Shown here: positions 15,501 to 30,500 of the stretch, one piece after another
Layout: the number at the start of each line of letters is the position of its first letter
Position numbering within the stretch: the stretch's first letter is position 1
Assembly (NCBI RefSeq): GCF_056712565.1
Contig: NZ_CM160072.1
Length of the DNA: 64,000 bases
Reading direction: 5' to 3' (one strand)
Made by a program: the position numbers

Positions 15501-18500
15501 CGCTGGGGGTGATTGGCGTGATTTATGAAGCGCGCCCGAACGTGACGGTTGATGTTGCTTCCCTGTGCCTGAAAACCGGTAACGCGGTGATCCTGCGCGG
15601 CGGCAAAGAAACCTGTCGCACTAACGCTGCAACGGTAGCGGTGATTCAGGACGCCCTGAAATCCTGCGGCTTACCGGCGGGTGCCGTGCAGGCAATTGAT
15701 AATCCTGACCGTGCGCTGGTCAGTGAAATGCTGCGTATGGATAAATACATCGACATGCTGATCCCGCGCGGTGGGGCTGGTTTGCATAAACTGTGCCGCG
15801 AGCAGTCGACAATCCCGGTGATCACAGGCGGTATAGGCGTATGCCATATTTACGTTGATGAAAGTGCAGAGATCGCTGAAGCCCTGAAAGTAATTGTCAA
15901 CGCGAAAACTCAGCGACCGAGCACATGTAATACGGTAGAAACGTTGCTGGTAAATAAAAACATCGCAGATAGCTTCCTGCCCGCATTAAGCAAACAAATG
16001 GCGGAAAGCGGCGTGACGTTACACGCTGATGCAGCCGCGCTGGCGCAGTTGCAGGCAGGCCCCGCGAAGGTGGTGGCTGTTAAAGCCGAAGAGTATGACG
16101 ATGAGTTTCTGTCATTAGATTTGAACGTCAAAATCGTTAGCGATCTGGATGACGCCATTGCCCATATTCGTGAACACGGCACGCAACACTCCGATGCGAT
16201 CCTGACCCGCGATATGCGCAACGCCCAGCGTTTTGTTAACGAAGTGGATTCCTCCGCTGTTTACGTTAACGCCTCTACGCGTTTTACCGACGGCGGCCAG
16301 TTTGGTCTGGGGGCGGAAGTTGCGGTAAGCACACAAAAACTCCACGCGCGCGGCCCAATGGGGCTGGAAGCTCTGACCACTTACAAGTGGATCGGCATTG
16401 GTGATTACACCATTCGTGCGTAAATAAAACCGGGTGATGCAAAAGTAGCCATTTGATTCACAAGGCCATTGACGCATCGCCCGGTTAGTTTTAACCTTGT
16501 CCACCGTGATTCACGTTCGTGAACATGTCCTTTCAGGGCCGATATAGCTCAGTTGGTAGAGCAGCGCATTCGTAATGCGAAGGTCGTAGGTTCGACTCCT
16601 ATTATCGGCACCATCAAGAAAATCAATAACTTAGCTTAACTTCTCTAAGAAATTGTATCTTCTGTTATCACTTACAAACGCCTATACGTTGTTATGGGCT
16701 TTGGTAGTTTAACACGTATGGGCGAGTAGTTCCCAGGCTCAACCTCGTAACAAGTTCCTTTGAAGCTGGAAGACGTGCCACCGTCTCTAAACCTTCTACC
16801 AAAACTCTTAGCAAGATGTTCCACACCTGGCGCGGTGTCCAATGATGCTACACGTCGTGAGACGTTGCAGAGGATAAACAGGCTAAATGATGGGAAGAGT
16901 TTTAAGTGCAATAGTGGATTAAAGCCCACCTCTTCAAAACCTAACTTGATCGGGAAAGAATCAAGCTCTAGCACGGTTTCGTCCACCGGAGTACAACGGG
17001 TGCCTGATAAGAGAAGAACTGCTAAGACTTCATAGCTTTTGTGAAAAAGCCCTTTTTAGTGGATACGCCTACGGCGCTTATTTTTTGGTATAACCATCAA
17101 AGGCGCTTTATGGCTCCTATTGTCTTGAAAATGTATCTTTACTTGTATTGTGTTTTATGCGTAGTCTCCCTGTGTAGTATGTAACTTGTTAATTTTCATA
17201 TGAATACAGAGGCAACACGATGAAAAACATTGCAGCTATAAAACGTAATAACCGCAAGATTCACGCTCGTAAGTTCCTGTCTACGCCAGAGGGAAAAGCC
17301 TGGCTAGAGCGAAAGCAACGAGAGAACGAAGAAAGAAAACTCCTTAGTGAGTTGAAATGGCTTAGAGAGGATTTCTGAAAATCTCCAGAACGCAACAAGA
17401 CGCATTCTAACGCTGTTTTCATTGCTTGGTATAGGGATGTATATGTGATGTGTGTTTAATGCGTCTGTGAGCTTGTTTTGTGCCTTATTTTGCATTTTCA
17501 TAATGCAGAAGAGAACACGGAAAACCTTAAAATTAATTATTGGGGTATTTAAGGCTATTTTAAGGGGATTTAAGGGTATTAAACTTGATTTAATTGATTA
17601 AAATATAAACAGATAGCTCTGCATCTTATTGATTTATAAGGTTATTTTTGAATAAAGGTAAATAAAAAATAAATAGCCATAAATAGCTATAAATAGCTAT
17701 AAATACATCTAAATACATATGAATCCCCTCCCTTATGGCTAGATTGCGAGAGGTGCTTAACGCGATTTTTAGCGCCCCCCGATCTGGAAAATCCAGAATC
17801 CCCAAATATCAAGGAGGCATTACGCCTCCTCTTCTTCCTTCTTAATTCGCTGTACCGTTGAAGGAGCAACATTAAAGCTCTCGGCGGTTTTACGCACTGA
17901 CACGCCAGCGGAAAGGGCTTTCTTTATACCTTCCCTATCTACTGCCTTCCCTTTACCACGCTTTGTAGGATTGACGGCTTGCGCTTCTCGTTTACGCTCT
18001 AACATCAGTTCACGTTCACACGTTGCAACTGCCGACAACATCGTAAGCATCATCTTTCCCATCGCGCTTGTAATGTCAGCAATGATTCCTTCTTTGTGAA
18101 ATCGAACAATTACACCTCGATTATTAAGTTGTTCCACTAAGGCAAGAATGTCTAAGGTGTTACGCCCTAAACGATCAAGAGAGTGGACGTGTAAGGTGTC
18201 GCCTTCTCTCAGATAGGATAAACACGCCTGCAATCCTGGACGGTTAGTGTCTTTACCTGACAGCTTATCTTCAAAGACTTTATCAAGCGTTACTCCTGCA
18301 AGCTGGCGATCAGTGTTCTGATCTACAGTGCTCACACGCTTATAACCGATATTGCTCATAAAATCCTCTTAATGTATCGATTTGGCACTACTTCAATGCA
18401 AATGAGTATATCGTATTCATTTGGTCTGTTTCAAGCCTTATAGGTACGGAATATTACACGATTTAGATGTATTCATTTGGTATGCCTAATGGATACACAG

Positions 18501-27500: not shown

Positions 27501-30500
27501 AAGAGTGCAGGGGTGAACGGGAACAGAAGATCATTAGCTATAGACTACTTGAATCAGATTATGGACAGTAGACAGCCTTTTCTTCTTGTTACAGAAAATA
27601 AAACTTTTGAGAACGTTGTTTTAACAGGCATCGAATACACAGAAGAGGCAAGCGAATCCCTGGTATTTGATCTTAGCTTTGAGCAAATAAGATTAGTGTC
27701 TTATGGCACAGTAAACACTGTAGCTATCAAAACACAGCCATCTAAGAACATCGGGGCTAATATGAAAAAACGTGTTAACACTGAAAAATCAAGTAGTGAA
27801 GGTGAAGACACTATTACTCCTGCCTTTAAACAGGAATAGCCGTAAATGCCTCTAAAACGCTCTGTAACGATGTAATTATAAAAGAGGCTCAATCTATGTT
27901 GAAGCCTCTTTATTGCGTCTATGGCGTTGTTTTACGCCTTAAATTTGATTTTTTATTGATTGATAAGCCTTTCTCTATTTCAGGGTAGCGTAGAAGCTCA
28001 ATATATTTTTTAAGCTCTACTGGAGAAGCTGCATTCTTGCTATATGTGCGGAATGTCTCTGTATTGCCGCGTGTATGGCCCAGGAGAAGGGCGATCCTGT
28101 CTTCTGGAATTTGATTTCGATCAAGAAGCTGTGCTACTCCGTGTCTCAGAGAATGAAACACCTTCCTTTCTGTTCCCTTTTCCCCTAAAGCCTTTCGTTT
28201 AGCTCTTGTAAATCTCTGCGTGTGCCACGTGGAACGTTTACCATCAGCACGCTCTGTAATGCTGGCGTGATAGAACAAAAAGCCATTGTGAGGCTTTTCA
28301 CGCAGCGACAACACCAACGGAGTGATAAGGCTATGTACAGGCACAACACGTGCCGCAGCTTTCGTCTTTCCCTGTGTGATTTCAAAACACAGCACACCTT
28401 CGATCTCTTTCACATCGTCTATTGTGAGACTTGCTATCTCATTGATCCGCATACCTGTATAAGCACCGATAAGACACAAAGCCATCATTTCTTTGTTTTC
28501 TGCTGAATTACCGGAAAATACTTGCAACACCTGCAATAGCTCTTTGTTAGAAAATGCCTCGTAGCTCTCTCTACTTTGTGCCACATCAAGCCTATGCCCT
28601 CGCCAGGGGGAGAGCGCCCTTTCTGGCGCATCGTGGTAACGTGATGAAGCTAACTCCCATAGCTGGGCCATTGGGCTGATATAATTTGCAATTGATTGTT
28701 GTGAAAGGGTTTTTTGCATGTGTTCAATCCAGCCTGTAACAGTGGTGCGGCTCACATCTTGCAATGCAATATCAGGCTTTTTACGGTAGGAGAGAAACAT
28801 CTCTACCGCTTTTCTTGCCTTAGCTAAAGTGGCTGGCTTCTTCTTCGTGCTGTTAATTGTCAGGTAGATTTCAAGAATTTTAAGCAATGACGGACACGAA
28901 GACGCTGTATCTTGCATTCTGGTAGCTGTTTTGGCGTATTTAGCCTTACTGCGTAACAGCTCCAGCGTGTTCTCTATTGTGCTGTTTACAGGGGCGACAC
29001 TCTCCCGTAGACAATGGTACTCATCTGCAATCTGATCACGCTTTCTACGTGCAACACGAAGGTTACTTGTATGTAGACTCCTGACAAACGTCCTTTTTCC
29101 TTCAAAAAAGGGCTGCATATACACAGGCAGCGTGATCCGTAAATAGTAGTTACCGTAAGAATCACAGATTATGTATTGATTGGGCTTGTATCTCATAAAC
29201 TCCCCGGCTAAAGTGTCGGAGCGTTTGTAATGTGAAAATTGATTGTAACGCATAGAAAATGATAATTTTTTCTATAAGATTCAATCAATTAGTAATGGTC
29301 GTAGGTGATGGCATTAACACGAGATTAATCGAGTGTTTTACTCCTATTATCGGCACCATTCTAACGTCTCCCCAAGTCTACTCAAGTATTTAAAAACCTC
29401 TTATAATCAGTATATTAATGCCCCTTTTAGTCTTTTGACGTCTATTTAAGTACCCCAAACTCTACAAGCAATTGAGGGGATTTGCTGTTCAGTTTAGTGG
29501 AGATACCCCCAAGTGAAACTCAATGCCCGTCAAATAGACACTGCCAAGCCAAAAGAGAAGGCTTACAAGTTGGCTGATGGTGGTGGTCTGTACCTCCTGG
29601 TAAAACCTGGTGGAGGAGAATATTGGCGTCTCAAGTATCGTGTAGCTGGTAAAGAGAAGCTGTTAGCACTAGGTGTGTATCCTGAGGTCACCTTAGCTGA
29701 TGCTCCTGCAAAACTTGAAGAAGCTAAAAGAGGTATCTCTGGGGGAATCGATCTGATGGAAGTGAAGCGAGAGGAAAAGATTGCCCGGGAAACGCAGTTA
29801 AACAACACCTTCAAAGATATTGCCCTTGAGTGGCACAGTAACAAATTATAATCACAATAATAGTGTATATAATTATACATTGTATGCTTGGTAATCATAT
29901 AATGATAAAAGCTTCCGATAATCAGTATGAGATTTGTCCTTAAACTCCTGGACATGCTTTTCTAAATCTTCCAATGGTATATGTCCATTTATACAAATAA
30001 AATTCTAGTGATAAATACCTTCAGGTATGATTAGACAACATCTTTATTCGATGGGGGTTAATCTATATTTGATATCTTTCTTTTAAATAACAACGCCATT
30101 AAAAACGCTTTGTTTAATGACGTTTTTTTATTGTTTCCTATATAAAGCCTAACCAGCATAAACATTGGTGGCTCTTATGCTCATTGTAATTAAATGAGAG
30201 TGTGATTAATGTCTTTATATATTCTGGTAGTTATTCTCTCCAGAAGAATACATTGTAAGAAGATGACTGTTAGTATGTTTTAACATCAATTAACATTAAG
30301 GTTTGATAATAATTTTTTGTTGGCGAGTTCAAATGTTTTCATTTCATCATCTGATAGCCCGCTCCAGATTTTCTTTAGCATTACATTTTGAGTGTTTATT
30401 AGTTTTTGAGCAAGTGTAACTCCGTCAGGGGTTAAGCAAATACTTTTGCTTCGACGATCGTTTTTATTATTAATTCTTTTGGCAATATTCTTTTTTTCTA

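What the first reader, a model, noticed from the sequence alone, without database searches (positions are those of the whole stretch)
16595..29359. Intact 12.7-kb element in thrW whose gene set fits no satellite or prophage family I know
The 20 nt ACTCCTATTATCGGCACCAT (the thrW 3' end, 16595-16614) recurs exactly at 29340-29359, and the flanking bases differ on both sides.

What lies between the two copies:
- AT-rich DNA (judged by eye, not computed) in which every long ORF is uninterrupted
- a tyrosine integrase whose 5' end faces attR
- a serine recombinase
- 2.3 kb of repeat-dense non-coding DNA
- a rightward early operon with a winged-helix Rep-like protein
- a rightward late operon with a lambda E-family capsid gene

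What I could not find: terminase, portal, prohead protease, tail tube, holin/endolysin, primase/helicase, or a cI-type repressor.

This combination does not match the gene sets I know for P4-like, PICI, cf-PICI, PLE or PICMI satellites. The element is far too small for an autonomous tailed phage.

Hypothesis: a helper-dependent, capsid-encoding satellite of a siphovirus (lambdoid) helper, or an integrative plasmid/phage hybrid.
Basis: partly seen in the sequence, partly recalled or inferred. Interest (0 to 1): 0.88.

Follow-up and report, generated by a model that had tools for sequence, protein, structure and literature searches.

The report
Capsid-encoding phage satellite in thrW
This is an intact 12.7-kb mobile element in the E. 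coli thrW tRNA gene that most likely parasitises large virulent phi92-like phages; the family was already predicted in print in 2023 but has never been tested, and it shares with those phages the exact DNA site where their genome ends are cut.

Summary
An exact 20-nt repeat (the thrW 3' end) bounds a low-GC 12.7-kb element. 705 complete E. coli genomes show a clean empty site and 180 carry the element. All 15 genes are under purifying selection.

The element is satellite-like and fits none of P4, PICI, cf-PICI, PLE or PICMI. However, the helper is not lambdoid. The 609-aa and 237-aa proteins are homologues of the phi92 tape measure (gp134) and tail-tube initiator (gp135). The capsid protein resembles phi92 gp124, and the 120-aa protein has a gpD-like decoration fold. 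Phage Mt1B1_P17 carries a nuclease whose DNA-binding domain is about 98% identical to the element's Rep.

The family is not new. Barth, Dunham & Seed (2023, PMC10448857) described 224 such "putative E. coli satellites". Their table lists this att sequence and a 96%-identical copy.

New here:
- A motif, GTGCTTAACG-N41-AAATATC, is shared by these elements and Stephanstirmvirinae phages. The physical genome end of phi92 and BME3 falls inside its decamer, so it is a candidate packaging site.
- The family also occurs in Klebsiella, Enterobacter, Citrobacter, Serratia and other genera.

Helper dependence remains untested.

The parts
16538..16613 (+). thrW, tRNA-Thr(CGT); integration target
   Evidence: ARAGORN; Rfam tRNA, 71.8 bits
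16595..16614 (+). attL core (20 nt)
   Evidence: Exact repeat, 0 expected by chance
17220..17378 (+). 52-aa hypothetical ORF in the left arm
   Evidence: Annotated in RefSeq. Amino acids are identical in a diverged copy, with 4 synonymous changes. No family hit.
17543..17718 (.). Two arrays of 10-nt tandem repeats (GGGTATTTAA x3.7; ATAAATAGCT x3.7), just left of the terminus-like motif
   Evidence: TRF; function unknown
17738..17816 (+). Block shared with Stephanstirmvirinae phages. Its core is GTGCTTAACG-N41-AAATATC at 17753-17810. Candidate helper terminase recognition/cleavage (pac/terminus) site; predicted cut near 17757-17759.
   Evidence: 93.5-95.7% identity over 46 nt to phi92 and about 58 phage records. 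The annotated phi92 DTR end (343) lies inside the decamer. The BME3 record, whose ends were set with PhageTerm, starts at AACGCGATTTT.... The motif occurs once per locus, on the MCP strand, in elements of E. coli, Klebsiella and Enterobacter.
17820..18359 (-). Small serine recombinase (resolvase/invertase type, 179 aa)
   Evidence: Pfam Resolvase 1e-33; phrog_125 DNA invertase 6e-55. pN/pS 0.03.
19000..19600 (.). Iteron-rich putative replication origin within the 18360-20750 non-coding region. It holds 23-nt ACAGAATTCTGTTAGACACCCCC units, GGTAGCTCACAGTGAACTA units, ACCTAGGAAATGAKTTCC units and AT-rich tracts.
   Evidence: the repeat finder and TRF. Iterons are shared with the Enterobacter element. 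Copy number differs between strains.
20611..20639 (+). Sigma-70-like promoter (TTGACA-17-AATAAT, TG-extended) upstream of the early operon
   Evidence: Best promoter-like site in the element, 11 of 12 matches. Consensus match only.
20752..20934 (+). 60-aa early ORF
   Evidence: Conserved position in all family members; no family hit
20957..21124 (+). 55-aa early ORF shared with phages muut and inny at 96-98% nucleotide identity (muut_153)
   Evidence: A ribbon-helix-helix reading by eye was not supported by tools.
21176..21829 (+). Rep-like initiator (217 aa; N-terminal winged-helix HTH_36 / 'RepA_N'-type DNA-binding domain)
   Evidence: phrog_270 replication initiation 8e-11. Its N-terminal ~84 aa are nearly identical to phage Mt1B1_P17 QNJ49226, which ends in an endonuclease domain.
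21841..22116 (+). 91-aa conserved hypothetical protein
   Evidence: Orthologues in Klebsiella and Enterobacter; pN/pS 0.07
22249..22656 (+). 135-aa conserved hypothetical protein
   Evidence: pN/pS 0.06
22658..22993 (+). 111-aa conserved hypothetical protein
   Evidence: pN/pS 0.17
23022..23050 (+). Sigma-70-like promoter (TTGACA-17-TAATAT, TG-extended) upstream of the late operon
   Evidence: consensus match only
23339..23551 (+). 70-aa protein, first gene of the late operon (possible scaffold; guess only)
   Evidence: Conserved position; no family hit
23548..23910 (+). 120-aa capsid decoration/cement protein (lambda gpD-like fold)
23929..24957 (+). Major capsid protein (HK97 fold, Phage_cap_E)
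   Evidence: Pfam 7e-14. phi92 gp124 E 2e-6. 22% identical to the phiWec188 MCP. Foldseek finds phiTE, Bas63, Sf14, ICP1 and lambda capsids. dN/dS about 0.09.
24975..24999 (+). Terminator-like hairpin plus T-run after the capsid gene
25045..25248 (+). 67-aa protein with a weak helix-turn-helix signal
   Evidence: The family profile hits sigma region-4 HTHs weakly (E 0.006-0.02). Amino acids are identical in the diverged copy.
25263..27092 (+). Tape-measure-protein homologue (609 aa)
   Evidence: phrog_16051 3e-53. phi92 gp134 E 3e-38. Collinear with the phiWec188 TMP, with conserved N- and C-termini. Phage hits come almost only from Stephanstirmvirinae-type ~150-kb phages.
27126..27839 (+). 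Dit-like tail-tube initiator / baseplate hub protein (237 aa)
   Evidence: Pfam Dit_like 2e-29. phi92 gp135 E 1e-78, 58-61% identity. Syntenic with gp134-gp135.
27919..29253 (-). Tyrosine integrase (DUF6538 + SAM-like + catalytic domain); RefSeq start at 29196
   Evidence: Pfam, RefSeq, pN/pS 0.09
29340..29359 (+). attR core (20 nt)
   Evidence: The string CGAGTGTTTTACTCCTATTATCGGCACCAT is listed as an att site in Table S6 of PMC10448857.

Best explanation
The element is a phage satellite of virulent Stephanstirmvirinae myoviruses (phi92- and phAPEC8-like, about 150 kb). It belongs to the unnamed family that Barth, Dunham & Seed predicted in 2023.

Proposed life cycle, with each step marked shown or inferred:
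1. It sits integrated in thrW through its tyrosine integrase. (Shown: att repeats and empty sites.)
2. On infection by a helper it excises and replicates from its iteron origin using its own Rep. (Inferred from Rep plus iterons. Also inferred because some of these phages carry an Odn-like nuclease that has captured exactly this Rep's DNA-binding domain, which makes sense only if the phage meets and needs to destroy this replicon.)
3. Its late operon makes its own capsid shell protein and a gpD-like cement protein, giving a small capsid sized for about 12.7 kb. Portal, maturation protease or scaffold, terminase, neck, sheath, tube, baseplate and fibres must come from the helper. (Gene content shown; small capsid inferred.)
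4. The helper terminase recognises the GTGCTTAACG-N41-AAATATC site, which the satellite shares with the helper and at which the helper's own genome ends are cut. (Sequence identity and terminus position shown; function inferred.)
5. The satellite supplies its own tape measure and, in this E. coli lineage, its own tube initiator. Both keep the helper-like termini needed to fit into helper tails. (Homology shown. Purpose unknown: they may build satellite-specific tails, interfere with helper tail assembly, or both.)
For: Discrete and intact:
- exact att repeats
- 705 empty-site genomes and 180 occupied genomes
- every ORF has pN/pS 0-0.29 against a 95%-identical copy

A conserved family rather than a remnant:
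- the same gene order at 11-13 kb in Klebsiella, Enterobacter, Serratia, Dryocola and a second E. coli lineage, at different tRNA sites

Link to the helper:
- the TMP matches phi92 gp134 (E 3e-38) and the Dit-like protein matches phi92 gp135 (E 1e-78); both are seen in solved phi92 structures
- the two genes are syntenic with gp134-gp135
- TMPs of the Klebsiella and Serratia elements also hit almost only Stephanstirmvirinae-type phages
- the MCP matches phi92 gp124
- 86-98% DNA identity of the 55-aa gene and the rep 5' region to phages muut, inny, Mt1B1_P17 and BI-EHEC
- the Mt1B1_P17 protein combines the Rep N-domain (about 98% identical over 84 aa) with a phrog_681 endonuclease domain

Terminus motif:
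- phi92 DTR annotation
- BME3 physical end set with PhageTerm

Published prediction:
- PMC10448857
Against: - There is no experimental evidence here or in the searched literature for induction, replication, packaging or transfer.
- No circular or virion-derived contigs of the element were found; all related contigs are chromosomal.
- Only one terminus-like site was found. There is no counterpart of the other phi92 DTR boundary, so how unit-length genomes would be cut is unclear.
- The capsid protein is only 22% identical to the helper's, so compatibility with the helper's portal, scaffold and protease is uncertain.
- No excisionase, repressor or helper-sensing gene was identified.
- Both operons have strong sigma-70-like promoters, and how they are silenced is unknown.
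Confidence: 0.75

Rival explanations
1. It is an anti-phage defence island that is not itself mobilised. The diverged capsid, tape-measure and tube-initiator homologues would act as poison subunits, co-assembling with and wrecking Stephanstirmvirinae virions. The element would spread only vertically or by other means.
For: The structural homologues keep the helper-like interaction ends, namely the TMP N- and C-termini. TMP evolves very fast between family members: 28-36% identity against 57-77% for MCP, as expected in an arms race. The phage nuclease directed at the element's Rep shows that the element harms the phage. Interference is a normal side of satellite biology (PMC10448857).
Against: The element has its own replicon, an integrase with precise excision and insertion polymorphism, different tRNA sites in different genera, and a copy of the helper's genome-end motif. 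These are features of an element that is packaged, not only of a defence gene set. No PADLOC model hit. Interference and mobilisation are not mutually exclusive.
Confidence: 0.12
2. It is a satellite or hybrid that depends on a lambdoid siphovirus.
For: The capsid protein falls in Pfam Phage_cap_E, and the decoration protein has a gpD-like fold, as in lambda.
Against: The same D/E-type pair occurs in phiTE, Sf14, Bas63 and ICP1-type myoviruses, and these are the best structural matches. No DNA or protein match to lambdoid phages was found. All tail homologues and DNA matches are to Stephanstirmvirinae-type phages. No cos-like or lambdoid regulatory genes are present.
Confidence: 0.03
3. It is a deletion remnant of a full prophage, with the capsid and tail genes being what was left.
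For: It carries only a scattered subset of virion genes.
Against: No larger collinear prophage was found in 5426 E. coli genomes or in other genera. All copies are 11-14 kb, and the extra length is IS elements. Its structural relatives are virulent phages without integrases. All genes are under purifying selection. Empty sites are precise.
Confidence: 0.03
4. It is a self-sufficient minimal particle maker (encapsulin-like or GTA-like) that needs no helper and uses a portal-less shell.
For: It has a capsid and a cement gene without portal or terminase. A more distant relative (L049) has the capsid gene but no tape measure.
Against: The tape measure and tube initiator are useless without a tube, sheath and baseplate. 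The shared phage terminus motif and the phage counter-nuclease point to a phage partner. No cargo-type or lysis genes are present.
Confidence: 0.03

Closest known systems
Putative E. coli phage satellites of Barth, Dunham & Seed 2023 (NAR Genom Bioinform 5:lqad076; PMC10448857, Fig. 8, Table S6; unnamed)
   Same: Same element type: about 13 kb, beside a tRNA, with a tyrosine integrase, decoration protein, MCP, TMP and baseplate-hub gene. [quoted passage not shown] Their table lists this att string and strain BEN2908, whose copy is 96% identical.
   Different: Nothing essential; the window holds a member. The paper does not mention terminal repeats, packaging signals, phi92 or other genera. The terminus motif, the cross-genus distribution, the purifying selection and the matches to solved phi92 virion proteins are additions made here.
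PLE of Vibrio cholerae (satellite of the virulent myovirus ICP1)
   Same: Both are chromosomal islands that parasitise a virulent myovirus. Both have a RepA_N-type initiator with iterons, and in both the initiator's DNA-binding domain has been captured by a phage origin-directed nuclease (Odn; PMC8263062). The ICP1 coat protein is among the structural neighbours of this MCP.
   Different: PLE uses the helper's coat protein with its own external scaffold, TcaP. This element encodes its own coat and cement proteins and a TMP. PLE integrates with a large serine recombinase. No protein homology beyond the Rep domain type was tested or seen.
Capsid-forming PICIs (cf-PICI)
   Same: Enterobacterial satellites that encode their own HK97-fold capsid protein and take tails from a helper.
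   Different: cf-PICIs carry terminase small subunit, portal, protease, head-tail connectors, alpA and pri-rep, and exploit temperate phages. None of these genes is present here. Here there are tail genes (TMP, tube initiator) instead.
SaPIbov5 Ccm / P4 Sid-Psu capsid-size redirection
   Same: A satellite-encoded shell or decoration protein used to make capsids sized for a genome of about 12 kb (established knowledge, recalled from memory).
   Different: Ccm co-assembles with the helper coat, and Sid is an external scaffold. Here a complete, very diverged MCP-plus-cement pair is encoded. No homology to either.

Membership tests
Barth-Dunham-Seed 2023 putative E. coli satellites | About 13-kb element bounded by att repeats next to a tRNA, with a tyrosine integrase at one end | tested here: met
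   The att string is found in their Table S6.
Barth-Dunham-Seed 2023 putative E. coli satellites | Encodes a major capsid protein and a decoration protein | tested here: met
Barth-Dunham-Seed 2023 putative E. coli satellites | Encodes a tape measure protein and a baseplate component but no other tail genes | tested here: met
   No sheath or tube hits.
Barth-Dunham-Seed 2023 putative E. coli satellites | The Rep N-terminal DNA-binding domain is shared at high identity with a RepA_N-T5orf172 nuclease of phage Inny, Muut or Mt1B1_P17 | tested here: met
   83% identity over 119 aa to Mt1B1_P17 QNJ49226, with the first ~84 aa nearly identical. Its C-terminus matches phrog_681 endonuclease at 2e-18, and MUG113/T5orf172 weakly.
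Barth-Dunham-Seed 2023 putative E. coli satellites | Lacks terminase, prohead protease, alpA, head-tail adaptors and Pri-Rep | tested here: met
   No such hits in Pfam, PHROGs or NCBIfam
Phage satellite (functional class) | Helper-dependent induction, packaging and transfer | not testable with these tools
   Only indirect evidence: the shared terminus motif, the phage counter-nuclease and the missing virion genes
cf-PICI | Own terminase small subunit, portal, protease and head-tail connectors; alpA; pri-rep | tested here: not met
   None detected
P4-like satellites | Alpha primase-helicase, sid, psu, delta, epsilon and a P2-type cos site | tested here: not met
   No primase/helicase or P4 protein-family hits. 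All DNA matches to phages are to Stephanstirmvirinae-type phages.
Classical PICI / PICMI | int plus alpA/stl plus pri-rep, with terS or rpp (PICI); int plus alpA plus fis and no capsid genes (PICMI) | tested here: not met
   No alpA, pri-rep, terS or fis hits; capsid genes are present
PLE | Vibrio cholerae island with a large serine recombinase, RepA and TcaP, dependent on ICP1 | tested here: not met
   Different host, different integrase, and its own MCP. Only the Rep/Odn logic is parallel.

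The most novel reading that the evidence does not exclude
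The bipartite site GTGCTTAACG-N41-AAATATC is the terminase recognition and cleavage signal of Stephanstirmvirinae phages, and this satellite family has copied it. The satellite would then be cut at about window 17758 and packaged by the helper terminase into small capsids made from its own MCP and cement protein. These capsids would be joined to chimeric contractile tails built around the satellite's own tape measure and tube initiator. That would be the first satellite known to replace both shell and tail-core components of a virulent helper. It would also define the packaging signal of this phage subfamily for the first time.
Probability: 0.35. Interest if true: 0.7.

Novelty: already known. 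Interest (0 to 1): 0.45.

Why it matters
Satellites of virulent phages are known in detail only for Vibrio (PLE, PICMI). This family would give E. coli and other Enterobacterales an experimentally easy counterpart. Its helpers belong to a phage group widely isolated for therapy (phi92, phAPEC8 and BASEL phages).

About 3% of complete E. coli genomes carry the thrW form, so the element could limit or shape the success of such phages.

The family is already in print as a prediction, so finding it again is not a discovery. The shared genome-end motif gives a concrete, mutable target for testing how the satellite is packaged. The self-encoded capsid plus tape measure is an unusual division of labour that nobody has yet examined experimentally.

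Tried and rejected
- Second terminus: I looked for a counterpart of the phi92 left-end boundary in the element and found none. The GCTYAAC 7-mers nearby are uninformative. A weak inverted second copy of the motif at 20233-20290 is about what chance gives (p~0.05) and is not conserved outside the thrW lineage.
- RNA families: Rfam finds only the tRNA.
- Defence genes: there are no PADLOC hits for the ten small, early or hypothetical proteins and the recombinase and Rep that were scanned.
- Sequence-only searches of PDB with the 120-aa family profile gave nothing. The fold search was needed.
- The 55-aa ORF looked ribbon-helix-helix by eye, but no tool supports this.
- The 67-aa ORF has only weak HTH signals.
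- Packaged or circular forms: metagenome and IMG/VR contigs with relatives are all chromosomal contexts.
- Lambdoid helper and deletion-remnant readings were rejected (see the rival explanations).
- Literature: four searches on satellite, Stephanstirmvirinae, phi92 and thrW found nothing relevant. The 2023 paper first surfaced in the fifth search and was recognised after the Odn-like architecture was noticed.
It was redone with database homologues.

Full report
**Observation**

The 20-nt string ACTCCTATTATCGGCACCAT occurs exactly twice in the window, at 16595-16614 and 29340-29359, with none expected by chance. The first copy is the 3' end of tRNA-Thr(CGT), 16538-16613. The bases flanking the two copies differ. 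GC content drops from 0.50-0.56 in proB/proA to 0.35-0.45 inside the element.

A synthetic "empty site" query, made of the left flank, one core copy and the right flank, matches 705 of 5426 complete E. coli genomes contiguously, many at 100% over 700 nt. 180 genomes carry at least 80% of the element at about 95-100% identity, always between proA-thrW and paoD. It is therefore a discrete insertion with precise ends.

**Gene content**

Reading left to right:
- a 52-aa ORF
- a small serine recombinase of resolvase/invertase type (17820-18359, minus strand)
- about 2.4 kb of non-coding DNA with several iteron families and AT-rich tracts centred on 19000-19600
- an early operon behind a near-consensus sigma-70-like promoter: 60-aa and 55-aa ORFs, a 217-aa winged-helix Rep-like protein (phrog_270/391), and three conserved hypothetical proteins
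- a late operon behind a second such promoter: a 70-aa ORF, a 120-aa protein, the major capsid protein (Pfam Phage_cap_E), a terminator-like hairpin, a 67-aa protein with a weak HTH signal, a 609-aa protein and a 237-aa protein
- a tyrosine integrase on the minus strand facing attR

No terminase, portal, protease, sheath, tube, lysis, primase/helicase or cI-like gene was detected. No defence model hit among the ten proteins scanned.

The 609-aa protein is a tape-measure homologue. It matches phrog_16051 at 3e-53. It is collinear with the TMP of Phapecoctavirus phiWec188 and has strongly conserved N- and C-terminal ends. It matches phi92 gp134, a chain in a solved phi92 structure, at E 3e-38.

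The 237-aa protein is a Dit-like tail-tube initiator. It is 58-61% identical to phi92 gp135 (E 1e-78). The two genes are adjacent, as gp134-gp135 are in phi92.

The capsid protein is only about 22% identical to Stephanstirmvirinae capsid proteins (phi92 gp124 E 2e-6). Its model (pLDDT 62.9) falls with the phiTE, Bas63, Sf14, ICP1 and lambda capsid proteins.

**Not a remnant**

Against a copy about 95% identical (strain JNEC-KY174), every ORF has pN/pS of 0-0.29. Between genera, the MCP and the cement protein show dN/dS of about 0.1.

Relatives of the capsid protein, at 37-77% identity, occur in a second E. coli lineage and in Citrobacter, Enterobacter, Klebsiella, Cronobacter, Dryocola and Serratia. 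In every context examined the element is 11-13 kb with the same order:
- small recombinase
- non-coding origin region
- small ORFs and a (swappable) replication module
- three small genes
- about 70 aa, about 120 aa, MCP, about 63 aa, then a TMP of about 615-629 aa
- a variable slot (the Dit-like gene is seen only in the thrW E. coli lineage and in Dryocola)
- a large tyrosine integrase

These elements sit at tRNA-Gly, tRNA-Leu or tRNA-Thr genes. No larger collinear prophage was seen.

**Who the partner is**

Apart from the very distant capsid matches (mostly Pseudomonas myoviruses) and the wider spread of weak Dit-like hits, the informative phage matches are to Stephanstirmvirinae-type phages, which are virulent myoviruses of about 150 kb. 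Four lines point there:
1. The TMPs of the E. coli, Klebsiella and Serratia elements each hit about 134-140 phage records, almost all of this group.
2. The closest Dit-like hits are to this group.
3. The 55-aa gene and the 5' part of rep (window 20946-21529) are 86-98% identical in DNA to phages muut, inny, Mt1B1_P17 and BI-EHEC.
4. A short non-coding block is shared with these phages (see "An addition" below).

In Mt1B1_P17 the matching protein (QNJ49226, 328 aa) has three parts. The first is an N-terminal domain nearly identical to the first ~84 residues of the element's Rep. The second is a second winged-helix domain. The third is a C-terminal endonuclease domain (phrog_681 at 2e-18, with weak MUG113/T5orf172 hits). 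The muut orthologue has the same C-terminal two-thirds but a different N-terminal domain.

This is the architecture of ICP1 Odn, the origin-directed nuclease that destroys PLE (PMC8263062). A lambdoid helper has no support.

**Prior description**

Exactly this reasoning is published. Barth, Dunham & Seed (NAR Genom Bioinform 2023, PMC10448857) started from the RepA_N-T5orf172 proteins of Inny, Muut and Mt1B1_P17 and found 224 "putative E. coli phage satellites". These are about 13 kb, mostly tRNA-integrated, and encode Dec, MCP, TMP, a baseplate component and Int. They lack the cf-PICI signature genes.

Their Table S6 contains att strings with CGAGTGTTTTACTCCTATTATCGGCACCAT, which is this window's attR. 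It also contains strain BEN2908, whose copy is 96% identical to the window. The element is therefore a member of a family already in print, although that family is unnamed and, as far as the searchable literature shows, untested.

**An addition: a shared genome-end motif**

Window 17738-17816, between the left arm and the serine recombinase gene, matches phi92 and about 58 other phage records, at 93.5-95.7% over 46 nt for phi92 and most E. coli phages.

The core is GTGCTTAACG-N41-AAATATC (window 17753-17810). The exact motif with the same spacing is present in the four other Stephanstirmvirinae phages whose copy of this region I read: phi92, Klebsiella phages phi1_175008 and FKP3, and Citrobacter phage Tr1. 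In BME3 the record itself begins inside the decamer.

It also occurs exactly once in 20 of the 42 element loci fetched, always on the strand of the capsid operon. These loci include Klebsiella and Enterobacter elements and loci whose capsid protein is only about 52% identical. Further loci have one- or two-mismatch versions. The Serratia element and several others have none, and some of those loci may not reach that far.

The block is an island of conservation in otherwise diverged non-coding DNA, in phages and in elements alike. Because the loci were chosen by the match, this comparison is partly circular.

In phi92 the annotated end of the 343-bp left direct terminal repeat falls inside the decamer, as GTGCT|TAACG. 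Independently, phage BME3 has 342-bp terminal repeats determined with PhageTerm (PMC12210895). Its record begins AACGCGATTTTCAGCGCCCCCCGAT...AAATATC, one base from the same position.

The satellite family therefore carries a copy of the site at which helper-type genomes are physically cut. I infer that this is the packaging or terminus signal used to hijack the helper terminase. I found no counterpart of the other DTR boundary, so the form of the packaged satellite DNA remains open. The 2023 paper does not mention terminal repeats, packaging signals, phi92 or other genera.

**Mechanism and confidence**

The best reading (0.75) is a helper-dependent satellite of Stephanstirmvirinae.
- Shown: integration and precise insertion polymorphism, gene content, homologies, DNA exchange with these phages, and the shared terminus motif.
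- Inferred: induction by the helper, Rep/iteron replication, assembly of a small self-encoded shell on a helper portal, cutting at the motif, and use of the satellite's TMP and tube initiator in helper-built tails.

Why a satellite would carry a tape measure is unexplained. The TMP diverges much faster than the capsid protein within the family, which suggests conflict with the helper or with host barriers.

Rivals are a non-mobilised defence island (0.12), a lambdoid helper (0.03), a deletion remnant (0.03) and a helper-independent particle maker (0.03).

**Verdict**

The feature is real and intact. Novelty: already known, as a published prediction. Interest is moderate (0.45), because the family is still uncharacterised and the terminus motif makes its packaging directly testable.

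Noticed in passing
window 29360-30000 (ORF 29513-29851, +): Immediately right of attR lies the N-terminal fragment of a P4-type integrase (MKLNARQIDTAKPKEKAYKLADGGGLYLLVKPGG...; RefSeq 'Arm DNA-binding domain-containing protein'), followed by a truncated LysR gene and paoD. This is the remnant of an older thrW island. The same remnant is present in genomes with the empty site, so the satellite inserted in front of it.
   Followed up: partly
window 18850-19390: The iteron region is polymorphic. The window copy has about 440 nt more than the JNEC-KY174 copy, corresponding to a duplicated iteron module with 277-nt spacing (19096-19135 and 19373-19412).
   Followed up: partly
window 20233-20290 (-): A degenerate inverted second copy of the terminus motif (CTGCTTAATG-N41-AAGTATC), conserved in thrW-type E. 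coli copies. With site 1 it brackets the recombinase gene and the origin. Its chance expectation is about 0.05 and it is not seen in other genera, so it may mean nothing.
   Followed up: partly
window 20957-21124; L004 4012-4179: The 55-aa early gene and its downstream ribosome-binding region are about 98% identical in DNA to gene muut_153 of phage muut, which sits directly upstream of the phage's Odn-like nuclease gene. The phage seems to have captured more than the Rep domain. Whether the small protein does anything for the phage is unknown.
   Followed up: partly
L006, L008, L009, L014, L015 against window 25263-27092: Within the family the tape measure is only 28-36% identical between members, while the capsid protein is 57-77% identical. 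The Klebsiella element's TMP is closer to Phapecoctavirus TMPs (40-42%) than to the E. coli element's TMP (34%).
   Followed up: partly
L008 6144-7637; L010 6637-7563; L017 2857-4061; L019 6118-7575: The replication module is swapped between family members: an HTH_36 Rep, DUF6945 plus HTH_36, and proteins of 308, 485 and 497 aa (one with a faint DEAD-helicase signal). The structural module stays fixed.
   Followed up: no
L009 2311-3932; L010 1850-4003; L015 2952-4036: The left arm, between attL and the small recombinase, carries variable cargo in other genera (an HNH protein, DUF7480, YecR and unknowns). This is reminiscent of the defence hotspots of P4 and PICIs. It is almost empty in the window's element.
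   Followed up: no
L049 (IMGVR_UViG_2869437394_000005) 734-6704: A distant, smaller relative: a DUF6945 protein, small ORFs, a 352-aa Phage_cap_E capsid protein (27% identical) and a DUF6538 integrase, with no tape measure. It hints at a wider class of capsid-only integrative elements.
   Followed up: partly
phi92 L003 1 and 343; L005 2270/2271; BME3 L051 1 and 342: Both boundaries of the phage terminal repeat read ...GCT|YAAC... on the same strand (GGTGCT|TAACG and TAGGCT|CAACA). An AAATATC heptamer also lies near each boundary. This suggests a short common cleavage context. It was seen by eye only.
   Followed up: no
phage records MG065639, MG065645, MG065650, MG065656, MG065689: Several unannotated records named 'Campylobacter phage' (about 146-151 kb) match the E. 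coli Stephanstirmvirinae sequences as well as the coliphages do. They look mislabelled or contaminant-derived.
   Followed up: no
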